Under the pieces are notes generated by a model. That model saw only the letters and a program-made list of their open reading frames with translations, made no database searches and was not told where the DNA came from. Of a DNA stretch of 64,000 bases, positions 13,929-64,000 are shown piece by piece (within the stretch, counting starts at the first letter, position 1; the number at the start of each line of letters is the position of its first letter). Both the position numbers and the translations under genes were made by a program. Location: assembly GCF_013315695.1 (NCBI RefSeq), contig NZ_CP054354.1; one strand, given 5' to 3'. The DNA is from Escherichia coli (GTDB taxonomy: Bacteria; Pseudomonadota; Gammaproteobacteria; Enterobacterales; Enterobacteriaceae).

Positions 13929-15033
13929 TGTGATACTCCTCGCTATCTGTTGCTTTCAGGAAGAGGCGAACGGAAGTGGCGTCTTTCAGGATGCCGGACG
14001 GCAGGTGCCAGCCGGTATCTGATAACACCCAGGGGGTTCCGCCAAAACCGAACTGGCGGAAAGCCTGGTTATTGACATCGATGGCAGCACGTGCGGCGGT
14101 CAGACACTGTCCATCCTGTGCGGCCGGTGCATCGCCGGTGGGGGCCATACCACTGTCAGCGGAATACAGCTGATGCCATCCGGTCGCCCGTTTTTGTGAG
14201 TCCGGTTCACACAGCAGCGGAGCAGTCCGCTTTGTACTGGACTCCCCGCCAATCACGGAGACCGGATAAATCACCACGCTGAATTCCCGGGCCAGTTGCT
14301 TAAGCGCGGGTTCCAGCAGACGGCAGTTGATGCATGCGGGGTCAAGGAAGGCGTACAGCGTGCGTTCATGACCAGTGGACAGGTTAATGGTGAACATCCC
14401 CCGGTCTGCGTTGCGTTTAAGTACTGTGGCCAGATTACGGCGGGCCTCAGCGGCCTGAACGTGTTGTTCTTCCGTCACTGCCGTCGGGGCGGGGGCAGAA
14501 GAAGGTTCCTGCTGTGTGGGAGCCGGGCGGACCGGGATGCTGTTAACATGATGTTCCGTATGTGGGCGTGGTGTCTCTGTGTCGGTTACTGGTTCAGCTC
14601 TCCATTCCTGAGATGTAGGGTAAGCCAGCGTGGAAGGGGACTCTGCCTTCATCCAGTGGTAACCTGCAACTGTCGCCGGCAGAGCAATTCCGGCGATAAA
14701 GCCACACATCAGTGTCCGCCAGAAGCCATTTTTCCGGGAGGGATGTTTTCCTTTTCCGGCATATTCGGCATCCAGGCAGGCATCAATCGCTGAGAGCATT
14801 CTGCCGATGTGATGTCCGGGACGTTCTGCATCAACGGTATCAACAAGCACCGTTTCGGTTATTTCGCGAAAAGGGGAACTGAAGGACAGGTGCATCAGCC
14901 TGTTATTACGGTTAATCAGTGCGCCCAGTTCTGTGACTGGCAGGATGGCAATCACCTCCCGATTACCGTCAGGGTACAGGGCGGTCAGGGACAGGTGTTT
15001 ATTATTCAGTGTTGCAGTGTAGTGGATGGTCAT
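13909..15033 (-). CDS. trbB: TrbB-like thioredoxin-fold (DsbC-like) protein
   Basis: 374 aa; CxxC motif in FLDPACINC; start overlaps trbA stop (ATGA). Confidence 0.6.
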   Translation of the reverse strand: MTIHYTATLNNKHLSLTALYPDGNREVIAILPVTELGALINRNNRLMHLSFSSPFREITETVLVDTVDAERPGHHIGRMLSAIDACLDAEYAGKGKHPSRKNGFWRTLMCGFIAGIALPATVAGYHWMKAESPSTLAYPTSQEWRAEPVTDTETPRPHTEHHVNSIPVRPAPTQQEPSSAPAPTAVTEEQHVQAAEARRNLATVLKRNADRGMFTINLSTGHERTLYAFLDPACINCRLLEPALKQLAREFSVVIYPVSVIGGESSTKRTAPLLCEPDSQKRATGWHQLYSADSGMAPTGDAPAAQDGQCLTAARAAIDVNNQAFRQFGFGGTPWVLSDTGWHLPSGILKDATSVRLFLKATDSEEYHNEPAPR

Positions 15034-16373
15034 TGTTCTTTTTCCTTGTCGGCGGGATGCTGTTTTTCGGTGGTTTCGGTGGTTTCGGTGGTTTCGGTGG
15101 TTTCGGTGGTTTCGGTGGTTTCGGTGGTTTCGGTGGTTTCGGTGGTTTCGGTGGTTTCACCAGTGTCAGTGTCTTCGTCGTTATCATGGCGGCGGGGTAT
15201 CACGTCATCCGTGAGTGACCAGCGGGTTCTGATCTGACGTTTACGATCGCGATCTGGCTGAGGTTCGTCCCATATCAGGCCCAGCCCCAGCATGTCCCGT
15301 CGAAGCCCTTCAATGGCCTCTTCCACACAGGGTTCCGGGCAGGGGAGGCCGAGACGGCTGGCTTCATTTTCTGCCCGGGCAACGGCCACCACGCCGGCCC
15401 CTTCGATGAAGCCTTTTGTGGTGTTTGCCCGGTGAAGGGCATAGAAGAGCGTCCGGTCAACGCCCTTGAGCCACAGCCAGTTGGGGGGCGTCAGGCGCAA
15501 ATCATGTGCGTAAAGCCAGACCAGACCGCTGCGAACGTAACGGTGCTGCCTGAGCCACTGTTGTGCACCTTCTGTTTTTATGACCCGGATAAAGGCGTTT
15601 CTGGCCAGTGAATACACTGGCGTGCTGAAACGCCCCTGGTCCCGCTTGCTTTTGAGTCTGCAGGAGAGGTTGAGGTTATTCATCAGGGAAACAGCCGCTT
15701 TCCGGTCCCCGAGGAAGAACTGCAGGCCAAAGACGGCAAAGAGCGCTTTTTCATGTGGAGCCATGTCTTTCCAGGTGGTCAGAGGCTGGCCCAGCTGCGC
15801 CATAAAGCGCTGGCGCGTGGCCGCAACATCGAGCTGCATGTTGCGGATAAGGTTGTTCTGCGCCACAAAGACTTCCGGGGTTAGAGCGACACGGCGCTCG
15901 GGACGTTTTTGTCCGTGGAAGAGTCTGTTGCTGTCTCCGTCAGCCAGAACGGGGGCGATCGCCGGTGACAGTGATGAAAACAGATGTGGCAGCGTGTGGA
16001 TATTCAGTGGTCTGCGGGTGAAGCGGGGCTGGGCCGGATGCTGAAACCACATCCACAGAAAGCCGATCGTCATGGGAAGCAGAATCAGCCAGAGGATCCC
16101 CACGGTCTGTGACATGACATCCAGCCACTGGCTGAAAGTGATCGTTGCAGCGTTGTTGGCGGTGTTGGCCAGCAGGTTATAACGGGGGGCGGCAAAATGG
16201 TGAAAAGGCCCCCAGTCAGTCATCCCCCACATTGTGTGCAGGATCAGGCAGGTGGCAAAGACGATGTCGGGTAAAAAGAGCCAGATGAGAAGCGCAAAGA
16301 GCAGACATATGGTGCCAACGATATACCATATGTTCATCGGGTCTTCTGTTGTGGGGGAGTGTTGGTAAGACAC
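15030..16373 (-). CDS. trbA: TrbA-like protein (DotM/IcmP-like) with C-terminal (TTE)n repeat
   Basis: 447 aa; N-terminal TM segments; gene order trbA-trbB-trbC as in R64. Confidence 0.55.
   Translation of the reverse strand: MSYQHSPTTEDPMNIWYIVGTICLLFALLIWLFLPDIVFATCLILHTMWGMTDWGPFHHFAAPRYNLLANTANNAATITFSQWLDVMSQTVGILWLILLPMTIGFLWMWFQHPAQPRFTRRPLNIHTLPHLFSSLSPAIAPVLADGDSNRLFHGQKRPERRVALTPEVFVAQNNLIRNMQLDVAATRQRFMAQLGQPLTTWKDMAPHEKALFAVFGLQFFLGDRKAAVSLMNNLNLSCRLKSKRDQGRFSTPVYSLARNAFIRVIKTEGAQQWLRQHRYVRSGLVWLYAHDLRLTPPNWLWLKGVDRTLFYALHRANTTKGFIEGAGVVAVARAENEASRLGLPCPEPCVEEAIEGLRRDMLGLGLIWDEPQPDRDRKRQIRTRWSLTDDVIPRRHDNDEDTDTGETTETTETTETTETTETTETTETTETTETTEKQHPADKEKEQ
15063..15160. repeat. 9-bp tandem repeat (GGTTTCGGT unit, about 10 copies) inside the trbA 3' end
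   Basis: Direct tandem array in sequence; in-frame, encodes TETTETTE... on the minus strand. Confidence 0.9.
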
Positions 16374-16515
16374 GAGGATTCCTCCATCGATAAATAGATA
16401 AATTTCGGGATGAGGCTGAGTGGAATTAATGCGAACAATCGCCGGTAATGACCGGGCAGGGCTGAATTCAGCAGGGCATTTTCACAGGAACAACAGAAGG
16501 TGGTGAGAGACAGGC

Positions 16516-16547
16516 ACAAAAAAGCCGACTGGTGAGGCCGGCTTTTT
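16516..16547. terminator. bidirectional terminator-like hairpin flanked by A- and T-runs
   Basis: aaaaaagccgactggtgaggccggctttttt; near-identical copy at 17246..17277. Confidence 0.5.
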
Positions 16548-16909
16548 TGCGATCCCAGGGAGAGTGGGTGGCTCTGGCCCGGAGGAAGTCTCTTTTCAAC
16601 TAACGTTACCAGAATATCGTTATATTCACCTGATCGCAATCTGTTCGTTACAGTCTATTGTTCCGGGAGTAGCGATATCGCCTGAAACAAGTATAATCAG
16701 CAAGTTAGCCTTGTCTGGAGACTTACCTTCGCATCAATCCATCGGGACTATGGATCTGTGCTATTCAAAGACCTGGGCGGACAAACAGGTGGTGCTGCGT
16801 CTGGTGCTCTGGCCGGAGGAAGTCTCTTTTCAGCTAACAATGAAAGAGCTGTTGTGACAGGCAATGTAAGAGTAAACAACAGTGATTTCCTCCATTGATG
16901 GAGAAACGG

Positions 16910-17005
16910 ATGATTAACCTGTTAATCATCGTTCTCAGGGCGGTTGTTGCTGTGGCTAACGCAGTGATAGCTCTCCTGGAACTGATCCGGGAACTGGTTG
17001 ACTGA
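16910..17005 (+). CDS. small hydrophobic peptide, 31 aa; candidate type I toxin (DinQ/TisB-like)
   Basis: MINLLIIVLRAVVAVANAVIALLELIRELVD; GGAG RBS lies inside the palindrome CTCCAT-TG-ATGGAG; strong terminator follows; tandem duplicate at 17594..17689. Confidence 0.4.
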   Translation: MINLLIIVLRAVVAVANAVIALLELIRELVD

Positions 17006-17026
17006 TAATCCCGGAAACGTACTTAA

Positions 17027-17056
17027 GGGCAGAGGGTCACCGCCCTCTGCCCTTTA
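17027..17056 (+). terminator. rho-independent terminator
   Basis: Perfect 10-bp stem GGGCAGAGGG / CCCTCTGCCC, loop TCACCG, then TTT. Confidence 0.65.
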
Positions 17057-17245
17057 ATAATCTACGGACAGATTACTTTCTGTACTTCCAGAGCCTGTTT
17101 CTGTGAGTCAAACATGAGCTGGTTTTTACCGACTACACCCAAGTAAATATATTCGATATCTCCCATTTGCCGTATTTTCGTAAAATTCAACAGGAAATAT
17201 TCAACGGGAGTGAGAGAACTGCTGTCCGGGGAGGAGGTACAGACG

Positions 17246-17277
17246 CAAAAAAACCGACTGGTGAGGCCGGTTTTTTT
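17246..17277. terminator. bidirectional terminator-like hairpin (copy 2)
   Basis: aaaaaaaccgactggtgaggccggttttttt. Confidence 0.5.
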
Positions 17278-17593
17278 GCGATTCCGGATCGAAGTTGGTA
17301 GCCCTGACCGGAAGATAACTGCCTATAACTGACTATGAAATAATACGGCTGAAATAATATTTCTGCAAGCACAGTATAAGTATATACTCGGTGTGTCAGC
17401 TTTGAGGCACGTTCTTTCCGGCATATCGTTCACCGGGATGAACAGGTTGCAAGTCCTGGCCAAAACATCAGGTGGTGCTGGTTTTGGTGCTCTGGCCGGA
17501 GAAGAACTGTCTATAACTGACACTATAGAAAACGTGGCGACAGGCAATGTAAGGGCAAACCACGGTGTTCTTTCTCCATTGATGGAGAAGCGG

Positions 17594-17689
17594 ATGATTA
17601 ACCTGTTAATCATCGTTCTCAGGGCGGTTGTTGCTGTGGCTAACGCAGTGATAGCAATCCTGGAACTGATCCGGGAACTGGTTGACTGA
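17594..17689 (+). CDS. small hydrophobic peptide, 31 aa; candidate type I toxin (copy 2)
   Basis: MINLLIIVLRAVVAVANAVIAILELIRELVD; same RBS palindrome and terminator; the track ORF 17393..17689 is an in-frame upstream extension. Confidence 0.4.
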   Translation: MINLLIIVLRAVVAVANAVIAILELIRELVD

Positions 17690-17710
17690 TAATCCCGGAA
17701 ACGTACTTAA

Positions 17711-17740
17711 GGGCAGAGGGTCACCGCCTTCTGCCCTTTA
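17711..17740 (+). terminator. rho-independent terminator (copy 2)
   Basis: GGGCAGAGGG-TCACCG-CCTTCTGCCC then TTT. Confidence 0.6.
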
Positions 17741-18078
17741 ACAAAATATGCTCAGGTTAAAAATCGAAAACCTTCCTGCACTTCCTGTGCCTGTTCCCGT
17801 GAGTCAAACATGAGCCGGCTTTTACCCGGAACTCCCCAGGAAATATATTCTACATCCACCCACCATTTTCCGTATTCTTCATACGGTCCGGATATCACTT
17901 TAGTGACAAATGCATCAACCAGGTTCATTTTTACACCTTTCTGTTATTCTGCTTATTACGACCAGCAGACAGCAAATATTAAAAATAACGCGGCGGTAAA
18001 AATGGCAATTTTTTTCCATGCTGTATTTTTGCCATTTATTTTCTTTGAAATGGTTTTTTTCTTCATATCAGCAAATAA

Positions 18079-18546
18079 TTATTTCTTATTCTGTTTTCTC
18101 CAGGTCCATGGTGGTACCGGATTTTTATCTGCCCATAATCCCCGCTTCAGGGCGCGGGCATCACGCTGGAGCGGCGGGAGAGTATAGTCATTATTGTAGT
18201 CCGGGTACACCCAGGCAGCGCCGTTACGGACCTGCCAGCGATTTGCTTCTGTGCCGTCAGCGGTATAGACCCGGCCGAGAATACGGCCATACCTGTCTGT
18301 CTGCGCGTATTGCACGGTTACGGGCTTTCCGGCCACCAGGTCCTTCAGCTGAGTGGCTGACCAGCGTCCAAAGGGCTGTTTCTTTTCCGGTGCATCAATA
18401 TTAGCCAGACGGACCCTGACAGGCTTTTTGTCCTGTAATATTTCCAGCGTATCACCATCAAGAACGCGGATGACGTGCCCCTGAATCTGTGCAGCACAGA
18501 GAGAAGCGGAAAAAATAATGGTGAGTGAAAAGATATATTTTATCAT
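18079..18546 (-). CDS. nuc: secreted thermonuclease (staphylococcal nuclease-like)
   Basis: 155 aa; signal peptide MIKYIFSLTIIFSASLCAA; VIRVLDGDTLEI and RLANIDAPE motifs typical of SNase-fold nucleases. Confidence 0.7.
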   Translation of the reverse strand: MIKYIFSLTIIFSASLCAAQIQGHVIRVLDGDTLEILQDKKPVRVRLANIDAPEKKQPFGRWSATQLKDLVAGKPVTVQYAQTDRYGRILGRVYTADGTEANRWQVRNGAAWVYPDYNNDYTLPPLQRDARALKRGLWADKNPVPPWTWRKQNKK

Positions 18547-20734: not shown

Positions 20735-20985
20735 ACGTAGTCACTTTCCGGCTTTATTTCTGTCCCTGACACAAAATACGTGGTGGCATGAAAAGGATTG
20801 TGGCGGACTGGAAAACGATTAGAATAGCGGCGGGCGCTTGAGGCTGTATGCCGAAAGCGTTTTGTGGACGGCATGTAGCAGAAAGCCCCAGGCGATTTTT
20901 TTATCAATCAACCCAGGGCCCACTGTAATGCCTCAACAACATTATAGTAGCCCGATGACGGCCGAAAGGCAATGGAGGGGCTGCG

Positions 20986-21138
20986 ATGCCACAACGAACG
21001 TTTTTAATGATGTTAATCGTCGTCTGTGTGACGATACTGTGTTTTGTCTGGATGGTGAGGGATTCGCTTTGCGGATTTCGTATCGAGCAGGGAAATACGG
21101 TGCTTGTGGCAACGTTAGCCTACGAAGTTAAACGTTAA
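20986..21138 (+). CDS. hok: Hok/Gef-family type I toxin (PndA/Hok-like), 50 aa
   Basis: Not in ORF track (<60 aa). MPQRTFLMMLIVVCVTILCFVWMVRDSLCGFRIEQGNTVLVATLAYEVKR matches the Hok/PndA pattern; overlapped in another frame by ORF 20838..21131 (mok-like). Confidence 0.7.
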   Translation: MPQRTFLMMLIVVCVTILCFVWMVRDSLCGFRIEQGNTVLVATLAYEVKR

Positions 21139-63700: not shown

Positions 63701-64000
63701 TATTCAGTGGCTTTTGGGATCCTCGCGGTCCGGAAAGCCAGAAAACGGCAGAATGCGCCATAAGGCATTCAGGACGTATGGCAGAAACGACGGCAGTTTG
63801 CCGGTGCCGGAAGGCTGAAAAAAGTTTCAGAAGACCATAAAGGAAAACCCCCACTATTTTTCCTCGAACTTGGCGGAACGCAGAAAAATAATGGGGGCCT
63901 CACAGAATACGGGATAAGTATATATGAAACCGTACCAGAGATTCAACCCTGTGCAGTGTATAAATACACGGCACAATCGCTCCGCCATAAGCGACAGCTT

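What the first reader, a model, noticed from the sequence alone, without database searches (positions are those of the whole stretch)
16500..17740. Tandem pair of 31-aa hydrophobic-peptide genes with sequestered RBS, resembling DinQ/TisB-type type I toxins
Two near-identical small ORFs (16910..17005 and 17594..17689; MINLLIIVLRAVVAVANAVIA[L/I]LELIRELVD) each have GGAG inside the palindrome CTCCAT-TG-ATGGAG, which would occlude ribosome binding in a folded mRNA, and each is followed by a perfect 10-bp-stem terminator. Each copy is preceded by related structured DNA (a CTCTGGCCGGAGGAAGTCTCTTTTCA block and an A-run/hairpin/T-run element). The peptide shares an ALLELIR stretch with E. coli DinQ as I remember it. 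The locus occupies the trbA-proximal end of the accessory stretch; in R64 the pnd killer gene lies in the trbABC region.
Basis: partly seen in the sequence, partly recalled or inferred. Interest (0 to 1): 0.6.

Follow-up and report, generated by a model that had tools for sequence, protein, structure and literature searches.

The report
Two DqlB/AgrB plasmid toxin–antitoxin modules

Summary
Two 31-aa ORFs (16910..17005, 17594..17689) differ at one residue. Both score far above the curated cut-off of NCBIfam NF041473, 'DinQ-like type I toxin DqlB'. RefSeq copies of this IncI1 region, 99.7% identical, already annotate both as dqlB.

The 'upstream structured DNA' is a pair of divergently transcribed AgrB-like small RNA genes on the minus strand (16516..16603, 17245..17332). 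The 5' tail of each is complementary to about 37 nt of the neighbouring dqlB leader.

The leaders are homologous at nucleotide level to E. coli dinQ. They carry its elements, including the hairpin that buries GGAG.

The family was defined in 2016. It was shown to be a toxic, agrB-rescued, plasmid-stabilising module on pOXA-48 and pOXA-484 in 2025.

Three modest extras came out:
- The two modules belong to different predicted antitoxin specificity classes (cognate duplexes -63.5 and -54.4 kcal/mol, crossed -37.6 and -41.2).
- Their coding parts are nearly identical although their leaders are only 71% alike.
- A common natural variant has lost toxin 1 but kept its antitoxin.

No LexA box is present, unlike chromosomal dinQ.

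The parts
16516..16603 (-). AgrB-like sRNA gene 1 (antitoxin of module 1). It has a 5' single-stranded tail, a stem-loop and a terminator hairpin (16518-16548).
   Evidence: Rfam RF02891 AgrB, 37.4 bits (gathering score 40), E=0.0011, full model 1-84. Close class-A relatives score 52.8 and 55.3 bits. Fold.
16611..16639 (-). Putative promoter of AgrB-like 1: -35 TTGCGA (16634-16639), 17-nt spacer, -10 TATTCT (16611-16616), 7 nt to the 5' U at 16603.
   Evidence: Read from the sequence. It has the same architecture as E. coli agrB (TTGCAA-17-TAGTAT-7-UUAG). It was not called by the consensus scan because it matches only 8 of 12 positions.
16692..16704 (+). dqlB-1 -10 box TATAAT (16692-16697) and inferred +1 G (16704).
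   Evidence: Nucleotide alignment with dinQ +1 GUUAGC and Kristiansen 2016 numbering. The transcription start is inferred, not measured.
16717..16730 (+). Leader element 1 of dqlB-1 (GGAGACUUACCUUC), which pairs with element 2 in the full-length mRNA.
   Evidence: The MFE of the full-length leader shows the 1:2 duplex.
16802..16838 (+). Leader element 2 and AgrB-like 1 target site of dqlB-1 (-108..-72 from the ATG).
   Evidence: RNAduplex -63.5 kcal/mol, 37 nt. Direct repeat D6 at 96%. Intermolecular covariation.
16884..16903 (+). Elements 3 and 4 of dqlB-1: the anti-SD GAUUUCCUCCAU and AUGGAG carrying the SD GGAG (16900-16903).
   Evidence: Closed hairpin in the full-length leader (P unpaired 0-0.01). 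It opens to about 0.3-0.4 after 5' truncation at +41 to +61, and recloses when the target is blocked. The hairpin is conserved in all 14 loci.
16910..17005 (+). dqlB-1 CDS, 31 aa.
   Evidence: NF041473 63.7 bits. dN/dS about 0.08 across 12 homologues.
17027..17056 (+). dqlB-1 terminator hairpin: 10-bp stem, 6-nt loop, then UUUAA.
   Evidence: I4. Homologous to the dinQ terminator.
17077..17160 (-). Remnant of a second copy of the 58-aa ORF. It is part of the repeated unit and marks the junction between the two modules.
   Evidence: tblastn 64% identity over 28 aa. Repeat D3 at 80%.
17245..17332 (-). AgrB-like sRNA gene 2 (antitoxin of module 2). Terminator hairpin at 17247-17277.
   Evidence: Rfam RF02891 47.7 bits, above the gathering score of 40, E=5.9e-06.
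17340..17368 (-). Putative promoter of AgrB-like 2: -35 TTGCAG (17363-17368), 17-nt spacer, -10 TATTAT (17340-17345), 7 nt to the 5' U at 17332.
   Evidence: Read from the sequence, by analogy with E. coli agrB.
17383..17395 (+). dqlB-2 -10 box TATACT (17383-17388) and inferred +1 G (17395).
   Evidence: Alignment with dinQ +1. Inferred.
17411..17422 (+). Leader element 1 of dqlB-2 (GUUCUUUCCGGC).
   Evidence: 1:2 duplex in the MFE of the full-length leader. It co-varies with element 2 between win_2 and L008.
17483..17521 (+). Leader element 2 and AgrB-like 2 target of dqlB-2 (-111..-73).
   Evidence: RNAduplex -54.4 kcal/mol. Within the 23 nt nearest the sRNA 5' end, 21 positions pair and 2 do not.
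17572..17589 (+). SD hairpin of dqlB-2 (UUCUCCA-UUGA-UGGAGAA; SD GGAG at 17584-17587).
   Evidence: -11.1 kcal/mol for the 33-nt stretch around it.
17594..17689 (+). dqlB-2 CDS, 31 aa (L22I relative to copy 1).
   Evidence: NF041473 66.2 bits.
17711..17741 (+). dqlB-2 terminator hairpin (10-bp stem with one G.U).

Best explanation
The region holds two complete, adjacent type I toxin-antitoxin modules of the DqlB/AgrB (DinQ-like) family on an IncI1 plasmid.

In each module a sigma-70 promoter makes an mRNA of about 350 nt with a leader of about 200 nt. In the primary transcript, leader element 1 pairs with element 2. That leaves element 3 free to pair with element 4, so the Shine-Dalgarno GGAG sits in a closed hairpin and the mRNA is not translated.

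Removal of the 5' end frees element 2, which captures element 3. This opens the SD and allows synthesis of a 31-aa single-helix peptide that damages the inner membrane.

A divergently transcribed AgrB-like RNA of about 88 nt pairs through its 5' tail with element 2 (about -110 to -72 from the ATG). This forces the SD hairpin shut again and probably exposes the duplex to RNase III.

If the plasmid is lost, the sRNA is no longer replenished and the toxin is made. That is post-segregational killing.

The two modules use different sRNA/target sequences, so each antitoxin is predicted to control only its own toxin.

What is shown here: homology, anatomy, complementarity, covariation, purifying selection, and folding predictions.

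What is inferred from work on relatives (dinQ in vitro, pOXA-48 and pOXA-484 in vivo): toxicity, processing, RNase III cleavage, relative RNA stability and killing on plasmid loss.
For: Peptides:
- NF041473 at 63.7 and 66.2 bits against a cut-off of 35.
- RefSeq annotation of 99.7%-identical DNA as dqlB x2, in pHUSEC41-1 and many others.
- dN/dS about 0.08 over 63 pairwise comparisons of 12 homologous ORFs.

sRNAs:
- Rfam AgrB full-length matches on the minus strand upstream of each ORF.
- The same arrangement occurs in 8 other plasmid or ICE loci.

Leader:
- Base-level alignment with E. coli dinQ from +1 through element 2, the GACAGGCAAUG box, the SD hairpin, the start of the CDS and the terminator.

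Interaction:
- Cognate duplexes are -63.5 and -54.4 kcal/mol, against -62.7 for the experimentally active agrB:dinQ pair.
- In an 11x11 matrix, cognate pairs average -60.6 and non-cognate -42.1. None of 20000 permutations reached the observed value.
- Across 9 loci, 97.1% of 207 intermolecular cells pair, against 44-48% in slid controls. Fourteen of 23 pairs show double changes.

Switch:
- For copy 1, the folds reproduce closed (full-length), open (5'-truncated) and closed again (target blocked).
- All 14 homologues have GGAG in a hairpin arm, with a U-A to G-C swap at the sixth pair.

Function of the family:
- Toxicity with ghost cells, rescue by agrB in trans, Tn-seq essentiality of agrB and killing on plasmid loss on pOXA-48; 67.4% of IncI1 plasmids carry dqlB (PMC12365149).
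- Toxicity and stabilisation on pOXA-484 (PMC12317039).
- The four-element model and agrB action (PMC5066626).

Natural genetics:
- A deletion variant lost toxin 1 but kept AgrB-like 1.
- A Tn3 insertion separates the sRNA and toxin genes by 5 kb with both retained.
- Both fit a trans-acting antitoxin that must persist.
Against: - No experiment exists for these IncI1 alleles. Transcription starts, processing and toxicity are all inferred.
- AgrB-like 1 is below Rfam's gathering score (37.4 against 40).
- The promoters have weak -35 boxes and were not called by the consensus scan. The dqlB terminators have only three U.
- For copy 2 the SD hairpin stays closed in every in-silico truncation. The same holds for several relatives, including IncX alleles, so the test has little power.
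- AgrB-like 2 has two true mismatches to its target within the 23 nt nearest its 5' end. Its duplex (-54.4) is weaker than the one the L008 sRNA would form with the same target (-59).
- Toxin 1 is absent from the deletion variant, seen in one sequenced plasmid and probably many more, so it is dispensable.
Confidence: 0.88

Rival explanations
1. The family assignment is right, but one module is a decaying or silent copy. Only one of the two would work as an addiction module. The other would be kept by hitch-hiking or gene conversion.
For: - Toxin 1 and most of its leader are deleted in the L016-type variant. Hit patterns suggest roughly 130 such records.
- AgrB-like 2 has two mismatches in its pairing region, and the copy-2 SD hairpin is extra stable (-11.1 kcal/mol). 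It never opens in silico.
- AgrB-like 1 is below the Rfam gathering score.
Against: - Both ORFs are intact and under the same constraint.
- Both leaders keep all four elements. Both sRNAs keep promoter, tail and terminator.
- The tandem is 99.7% conserved in many plasmids from several genera.
- Class-B relatives have the same strong hairpin, so that is a class trait and not decay.
- The in-silico opening test also fails for IncX-type alleles, relatives of which were shown to be toxic.
Confidence: 0.2
2. The modules are not primarily addiction systems. The peptides would serve another purpose, such as stress-induced membrane or nucleoid modulation like chromosomal DinQ, abortive infection against phage, or competition between related plasmids.
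For: - Chromosomal DinQ modulates nucleoid compaction and conjugal recombination (PMC5066626 introduction).
- The specificity determinant is hypervariable and falls into discrete classes. That hints at conflict between elements rather than simple stabilisation.
- A separate hok/sok-type module already sits 3 kb away.
Against: - Neither promoter has a LexA box. The only CTG-N10-CAG matches (16773, 17456) are G+C-rich and lie inside the leaders. SOS control as in dinQ is therefore unlikely.
- Direct experiments on two plasmid relatives showed stabilisation and killing on plasmid loss.
Confidence: 0.1
3. The real genes are the longer ORFs that overlap the region: the 97-aa ORF 16564..16857, annotated 'hypothetical protein' in RefSeq, and the 98-aa in-frame extension 17393..17689. 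The short ORFs would be only parts of them.
For: Both long ORFs exist. RefSeq annotates the first in pHUSEC41-1.
Against: - The 97-aa ORF spans the 5' end of AgrB-like 1, both promoters and the leader.
- No equivalent CDS is annotated in the other fetched relatives, including the 92.6%-identical L003 unit, and no equivalent long ORF was listed for copy 2.
- The 98-aa extension has no counterpart in copy 1.
- Kristiansen 2016 notes that Dql peptides are often mis-annotated with long N-termini.
- SD spacing and conservation begin at the 31-aa start.
Confidence: 0.02
4. The repeats are termini or remnants of a mobile element, and the small ORFs are incidental.
For: Direct and inverted repeats are dense in the region. 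The region lies in a variable part of the plasmid.
Against: - Every repeat is accounted for as sRNA/target, SD hairpin, terminator, or module duplication.
- There is no transposase here.
- The same module sits in IncX, IncL/M and ICE backbones with different flanks.
Confidence: 0.01

Closest known systems
Plasmid DqlB-agrB type I toxin-antitoxin system (dql family of Kristiansen et al. 2016, PMC5066626; validated on IncL pOXA-48, PMC12365149, and IncX3 pOXA-484, PMC12317039; NCBIfam NF041473)
   Same: - A 31-aa peptide with the same consensus (MINLLI.VLRAV...LELIR...D).
- A divergent upstream AgrB-like sRNA.
- About 35 nt of sRNA/leader complementarity at the same distance from the start codon.
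- An SD hairpin and a plasmid location.
- RefSeq already labels this exact DNA as dqlB.
   Different: - Here there are two modules in tandem, of different predicted specificity.
- These IncI1 alleles have not been tested.
- The pOXA-48 sRNA lacks the Rfam-type middle stem. It was not detected by Rfam and was found only by complementarity.
E. coli chromosomal dinQ-agrB/agrA (arsR-gor intergenic region)
   Same: - Homologous leader, SD hairpin, start of the CDS, terminator, and sRNA promoter/terminator architecture.
- An sRNA gene duplicated nearby (agrA and agrB), in which sequence differences in the 5' tail decide activity.
   Different: - DinQ is 27 aa with a GUG start. The peptides here fail the DinQ HMM cut-off (22.2 and 19.1 against 30).
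- dinQ has a LexA box over its promoter and these do not.
- In E. coli one toxin faces two sRNAs. Here there are two toxin+sRNA pairs.
- Predicted cross-pairing with the chromosomal system is weak (-32 to -40 kcal/mol).
zorO-orzO / zorP-orzP tandem type I modules of E. coli O157:H7 (from my own knowledge of Wen et al. 2014; not checked here)
   Same: - Two homologous toxin+sRNA pairs sit side by side.
- The sRNA is divergent and non-overlapping and pairs with the long 5' leader.
- Specificity is set by a short variable stretch.
   Different: - The peptide family is unrelated.
- Rfam OrzO-P matches here only through the terminator hairpin, at 28.7-30.8 bits against a gathering score of 60.
hok/sok (pnd) of R1 and IncI plasmids
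   Same: A plasmid-borne type I addiction module with a processed, structurally locked mRNA. One lies 3 kb away in the same window (20832..20988).
   Different: In hok/sok the antisense RNA overlaps the toxin mRNA in cis and acts through a leader ORF (mok). There is no sequence or Rfam similarity at this locus.

Membership tests
DqlB/AgrB (DinQ-like) type I TA | Peptide matches the curated DqlB model above its cut-off | tested here: met
   NF041473: 63.7 and 66.2 bits, cut-off 35, full length 1-31
DqlB/AgrB (DinQ-like) type I TA | AgrB-type sRNA gene upstream, divergent, not overlapping the toxin gene (module 2) | tested here: met
   RF02891 47.7 bits, above the gathering score of 40, at 17245..17332 on the minus strand
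DqlB/AgrB (DinQ-like) type I TA | AgrB-type sRNA gene upstream, divergent, not overlapping the toxin gene (module 1) | tested here: inconclusive
   RF02891 37.4 bits, below the gathering score of 40, but E=0.0011 and a full-length model match at 16516..16603. Near-identical class-A sRNAs in L003 and L004 pass at 52.8 and 55.3 bits
DqlB/AgrB (DinQ-like) type I TA | About 30-35 nt complementarity between the sRNA 5' tail and the leader upstream of the RBS | tested here: met
   37-39 nt duplexes of -63.5 and -54.4 kcal/mol at -108..-72 and -111..-73. Covariation in 14 of 23 pairs
DqlB/AgrB (DinQ-like) type I TA | Leader homologous to dinQ with four elements able to pair 1:2, 2:3 and 3:4, and the SD in hairpin 3:4 | tested here: met
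   Alignment. In copy 1 all three states are predicted. In copy 2 the 1:2 and 3:4 pairings are predicted, while 2:3 is possible on paper but not favoured in silico. The hairpin is conserved
DqlB/AgrB (DinQ-like) type I TA | Sigma-70 promoter, correctly spaced SD, Rho-independent terminator | tested here: inconclusive
   -10 boxes TATAAT and TATACT, GGAG 6 nt before the ATG, and the terminator hairpins are visible and align with dinQ. The consensus scan did not call these promoters or terminators
DqlB/AgrB (DinQ-like) type I TA | Peptide is toxic, the sRNA in trans rescues, and plasmid loss kills | not testable with these tools
   Shown only for the pOXA-48 and pOXA-484 alleles
DinQ proper (chromosomal, SOS-regulated) | Peptide matches the DinQ equivalog model above its cut-off | tested here: not met
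   NF041472: 22.2 and 19.1 bits, cut-off 30
DinQ proper (chromosomal, SOS-regulated) | LexA box overlapping the promoter | tested here: not met
   No CTG-N10-CAG at either promoter. The only matches nearby (16773, 17456) lie inside the leaders and are G+C-rich. The dinQ box TACTGTATGATTATCCAGTT is seen
Hok/Sok (pnd) | sok-type antisense RNA overlapping the toxin mRNA | tested here: not met
   The Rfam sok match is elsewhere (20832..20988). There is none at 16500-17740
ZorO/OrzO | OrzO-P sRNA model | tested here: not met
   28.7-30.8 bits against a gathering score of 60, covering the terminator hairpin only

The most novel reading that the evidence does not exclude
The tandem may not be a redundant duplication. 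It may combine two orthogonal 'addiction specificities' that otherwise occur singly at the same site of related IncI-complex plasmids (class A: L003, L004; class B: L008).

The sRNA tail and its leader target would form a fast-evolving, recombining specificity cassette that is exchanged independently of the toxin coding part. The two window CDSs have dS 0.04 although their leaders are 71% identical. L004 and L008 share a CDS but differ in class.

A plasmid carrying both classes would resist displacement by competitors of either class. The common variant that keeps AgrB-like 1 but has lost toxin 1 would carry an orphan 'anti-addiction' antitoxin, which would let it displace class-A plasmids without killing the host.

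If so, type I TA specificity would be part of plasmid-plasmid competition, much like incompatibility or exclusion types.
Probability: 0.3. Interest if true: 0.5.

Novelty: already known. Interest (0 to 1): 0.2.

Why it matters
The practical value is in annotation. Many GenBank copies of this DNA carry only 'hypothetical protein' or nothing over it, and the AgrB-like antitoxin genes are not annotated in any record examined here. A long spurious ORF is annotated over one of them.

Recognising the region as two DqlB/AgrB modules, plus a hok/sok-type module 3 kb away, explains part of the stability of IncI1 resistance plasmids. It is also relevant to plasmid-curing strategies, which must supply every antitoxin class to avoid killing the host.

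The one open point of wider interest is whether the two sRNA specificity classes are truly orthogonal, and whether orphan antitoxins act in competition between plasmids.

Tried and rejected
- LexA/SOS control: a CTG-N10-CAG search found no box at either promoter. Rejected as a feature of these modules.
- TisB, Zor and Hok kinship: NCBIfam returned only DqlB and DinQ models. Rfam OrzO-P matched only the terminator hairpin, far below threshold. sok matched elsewhere.
- Consensus promoter/terminator scan: it did not recover the homology-inferred signals and instead listed unrelated candidates. I relied on alignment to dinQ/agrB.
- SD-hairpin covariation with RNAalifold on a MAFFT alignment: the alignment slipped because loop lengths differ, so the result was uninformative. 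I replaced it with individual folds.
- In-silico 'opening' of the SD on 5' truncation as a test of copy 2's functionality: it fails for several family members, including IncX alleles, so it is not discriminating.
- First intermolecular alignment, including the IncL locus: MAFFT gapped it. I redid it without that locus.
- Apparent orphan toxin in pAMSC5 (L010): resolved as a Tn3 insertion between the sRNA and toxin genes.
- The 58-aa neighbouring ORF: there was no significant Pfam or NCBIfam hit, only PHROG 8110 of unknown function.
- Literature search for agrB + IncI1: it gave no IncI1-specific experimental data. The other hits concerned the Staphylococcus agr system.
Full report
**Observation.**
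- Two 31-aa ORFs lie at 16910..17005 and 17594..17689 on the plus strand. They encode MINLLIIVLRAVVAVANAVIA(L/I)LELIRELVD.
- The stretch from just before the Shine-Dalgarno sequence to beyond the terminator is repeated at 94% identity over 189 nt, with a 684-nt period. The leaders upstream are only 71% identical.
- CTCCAT-TG-ATGGAG, with GGAG in the 3' arm, is present 7 nt upstream of each ATG.
- A G+C-rich 10-bp hairpin follows each stop codon. It is perfect in copy 1 and has one G.U in copy 2, and only three U follow.
- There are exactly two copies in the 64-kb window.

**Identity.** Both peptides match the curated NCBIfam model NF041473, 'DinQ-like type I toxin DqlB', over their whole length. 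They score 63.7 and 66.2 bits against a cut-off of 35. They fall below the cut-off of the DinQ model itself.
- A megablast against PLSDB finds the same 1.55 kb at 99.7% identity in many conjugative IncI1-type plasmids of Escherichia, Shigella, Klebsiella and Citrobacter.
- RefSeq versions of these plasmids already carry two 'dqlB: DinQ-like type I toxin DqlB' features at the corresponding positions.
- The window itself is IncI1. trbA lies immediately upstream, a repZ pseudoknot is at 63840, and a sok-type RNA is at 20832.

**The upstream 'structured DNA' is the antitoxin.** Rfam's AgrB model (RF02891) matches the minus strand at 17245..17332 (47.7 bits, gathering score 40) and at 16516..16603 (37.4 bits, E=0.0011). 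Both matches span the whole model.
- Each gene is preceded on the minus strand by TTGC(G/A)(A/G)-17 nt-TATT(C/A)T-7 nt. This is the same layout as E. coli agrB, TTGCAA-17-TAGTAT-7.
- The repeated block is the part of the sRNA that is antisense to the toxin leader. It is CCGGAGGAAGTCTCTTTTCA in module 1 and a diverged equivalent in module 2. Because the sRNA gene is divergent, a direct DNA repeat yields complementary RNAs.

**Homology to dinQ.** The MG1655 dinQ mRNA aligns base by base with both leaders.
- The alignment runs from the inferred +1 (GUUAGC), through GGUGGUGC...GCUCUGGCCGGAG and GACAGGCAAUG, to the SD hairpin, AUGAUU...AUCAUCGUUCU, CUGGAACUGAUCCG and the terminator.
- DinQ translated from that record shares IALLELIR with copy 1.

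**Mechanism tests.** Kristiansen et al. (PMC5066626) showed the following for dinQ.
- Four leader elements pair alternatively as 1:2, 2:3 and 3:4.
- The primary transcript has 1:2 plus a closed SD hairpin (3:4).
- 5' processing allows 2:3 and opens the SD.
- agrB binding to element 2 recloses it and allows RNase III cleavage.

In copy 1 the same elements are recognisable: 16717-16730, 16802-16838, 16884-16895 and 16898-16903. Partition-function folding reproduces all three states.
- In the full-length RNA the unpaired probability of GGAG is 0-0.01.
- After removing 40-60 nt it is mostly 0.2-0.5, about 0.3-0.4 on average, with 2:3 formed.
- When the sRNA target is blocked it is at most 0.01.

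In copy 2 the elements exist and 1:2 plus 3:4 are predicted, but the longer SD stem stays closed in every truncation. I do not read this as decay. The class-B relative L008 has the same stem, and several other family members, including IncX alleles, behave the same way in silico. All 14 homologues examined place GGAG in a hairpin arm, and the sixth pair switches between U-A and G-C.

**sRNA-target pairing.**
- RNAduplex of the first 40 nt of each sRNA against each leader gives -63.5 and -54.4 kcal/mol for the cognate pairs and -37.6 and -41.2 for the crossed pairs.
- For calibration, the active E. coli agrB:dinQ pair gives -62.7. The inactive agrA:dinQ pair gives -47.2 (inactivity from PMC5066626).
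- Over 11 loci (IncI1, IncI-gamma/K, IncX1/3/4/5, an ICE-like element and E. coli), cognate pairs average -60.6 and non-cognate -42.1. No permutation among 20000 reached the observed sum.
- On a gap-free alignment of the 23 target nucleotides and 23 sRNA nucleotides from 9 loci, 97.1% of cells pair, against 44-48% when the partner is slid. Fourteen of 23 pairs show changes on both sides.
- A caveat applies. The two DNA blocks are direct repeats, so gene conversion could in principle keep them matched without selection. The loci are also related.

**The ORF is a gene.** Across 12 homologues most codon differences are synonymous (mean dN 0.074, mean dS 0.915, ratio 0.08). The longer overlapping ORFs have no annotated equivalent in the other fetched relatives. 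These are the 97-aa ORF that RefSeq annotates across AgrB-like 1 and the leader, and the 98-aa in-frame extension of copy 2.

**What is known.**
- The dql family (dqlA, dqlB) was defined in 2016 on chromosomes and plasmids.
- In 2025 DqlB-agrB of pOXA-48 was shown to be toxic, producing ghost cells. It was rescued by agrB in trans, agrB was essential in Tn-seq, and the module caused killing on plasmid loss.
- The same paper found dqlB in 67.4% of IncI1 plasmids and noted that it is often unannotated.
- The IncX3 pOXA-484 locus was shown to be toxic and stabilising.

The present locus is therefore a member of a described, partly characterised family. It differs from chromosomal dinQ in peptide length and start codon, and in the absence of a LexA box at either promoter. 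That fits constitutive addiction rather than SOS control.

**What may be new, modestly.**
1. *Two specificity classes.* Module 1 groups with L003 and L004 (tail UUAGUUGAAAAGAGA...). Module 2 groups with L008 (UCAGUUAUAG.CAGUU...). Each class occurs singly at the same backbone site in other IncI-complex plasmids.
2. *Mosaic structure.* The two window CDSs are almost identical (dS 0.04). Each is dS 0.6-0.7 from the CDS of its single-copy class relative (L004 for class A, L008 for class B). L004 and L008, of different classes, share a nearly identical CDS. This points to recombination or gene conversion somewhere between the target site and the SD hairpin.
3. *Deletion variant.* One variant joins 16742 to 17163. 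It removes toxin 1, most of its leader and the ORF remnant, but keeps AgrB-like 1 and all of module 2 (L016). Partial-hit patterns suggest about 130 PLSDB records of this type, against about 126 with the intact junction. These counts are approximate.
4. *Trans action.* In pAMSC5 a Tn3 lies between the sRNA and toxin genes and both are retained, which fits action in trans.

None of these points was found in the papers I read, but I did not search exhaustively.

**Verdict.** The system is already known and already named in RefSeq, so overall interest is low. There is a moderate-probability side question about orthogonal antitoxin specificities and orphan antitoxins in competition between plasmids.

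Noticed in passing
window 16743-17162 (absent in L016 = NZ_CP151335.1 58768-61954): A natural deletion variant joins 16742 directly to 17163. It loses dqlB-1, most of its leader and the ORF remnant, but keeps AgrB-like 1 and all of module 2. Hit patterns suggest about 130 plasmid records share it.
   Followed up: partly
window 16910-17005 and 17594-17689, compared with L004:1846-1938 and L008:1044-1136: The two window CDSs are nearly identical (dS 0.04) although their leaders and sRNAs belong to different classes. L004 (class A) and L008 (class B) also share one CDS type. The specificity cassette and the toxin CDS seem to recombine independently, or are homogenised by gene conversion.
   Followed up: partly
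window 17752-17928 (-) and remnant 17077-17160 (-): A 58-aa ORF convergent with dqlB is part of the repeated unit. It accompanies dqlB in IncI1 and IncI-gamma/K plasmids (WP_001054907 and WP_001054897). It matches only PHROG 8110 of unknown function, with no significant Pfam or NCBIfam hit. The copy after module 1 has lost its N-terminal part.
   Followed up: partly
L017 (NZ_CP031110.1, pAMSC5) about 9094 (-) and 14374-14469 (+): A Tn3 carrying blaTEM-1 is inserted between the AgrB-like gene and the dqlB promoter. The -35 region is replaced by the Tn3 end. Both genes are kept 5 kb apart.
   Followed up: yes
window 16564-16857 (+): The 97-aa ORF annotated 'hypothetical protein' (WP_023636565) in RefSeq relatives spans the 5' end of AgrB-like 1, both promoters and the dqlB-1 leader. 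No equivalent CDS is annotated in the other fetched relatives. It is probably not a gene.
   Followed up: partly
window 15065-15158 (within trbA, minus strand): There are 10.4 perfect copies of a 9-nt unit, which encode the (TET)n run near the TrbA C-terminus. L016 aligns to this stretch with a 36-nt length difference, so the copy number may vary between plasmids.
   Followed up: no
window 20832-20988 (+): An Rfam sok antitoxin match (124.7 bits) lies next to a Hok/Gef gene in the reference annotation.
   Followed up: no
L012, L014, L015 (IncL/M, pOXA-48-like), minus strand upstream of dqlB: The IncL/M antitoxin RNA was not detected by Rfam AgrB at E<=0.1. It was found only by complementarity (-63.5 to -65.4 kcal/mol). 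It keeps the terminator with the CUCACCAG loop but lacks the Rfam-type middle stem, so the Rfam model under-covers the family.
   Followed up: partly
window 17956-18066 (-): A 36-aa ORF with a signal/lipoprotein-like sequence (MKKKTISKKINGKNTAWKKIAIFTAALFLIFAVCWS) lies just upstream of the thermonuclease-family gene (18079-18546). It is not annotated in the reference.
   Followed up: no
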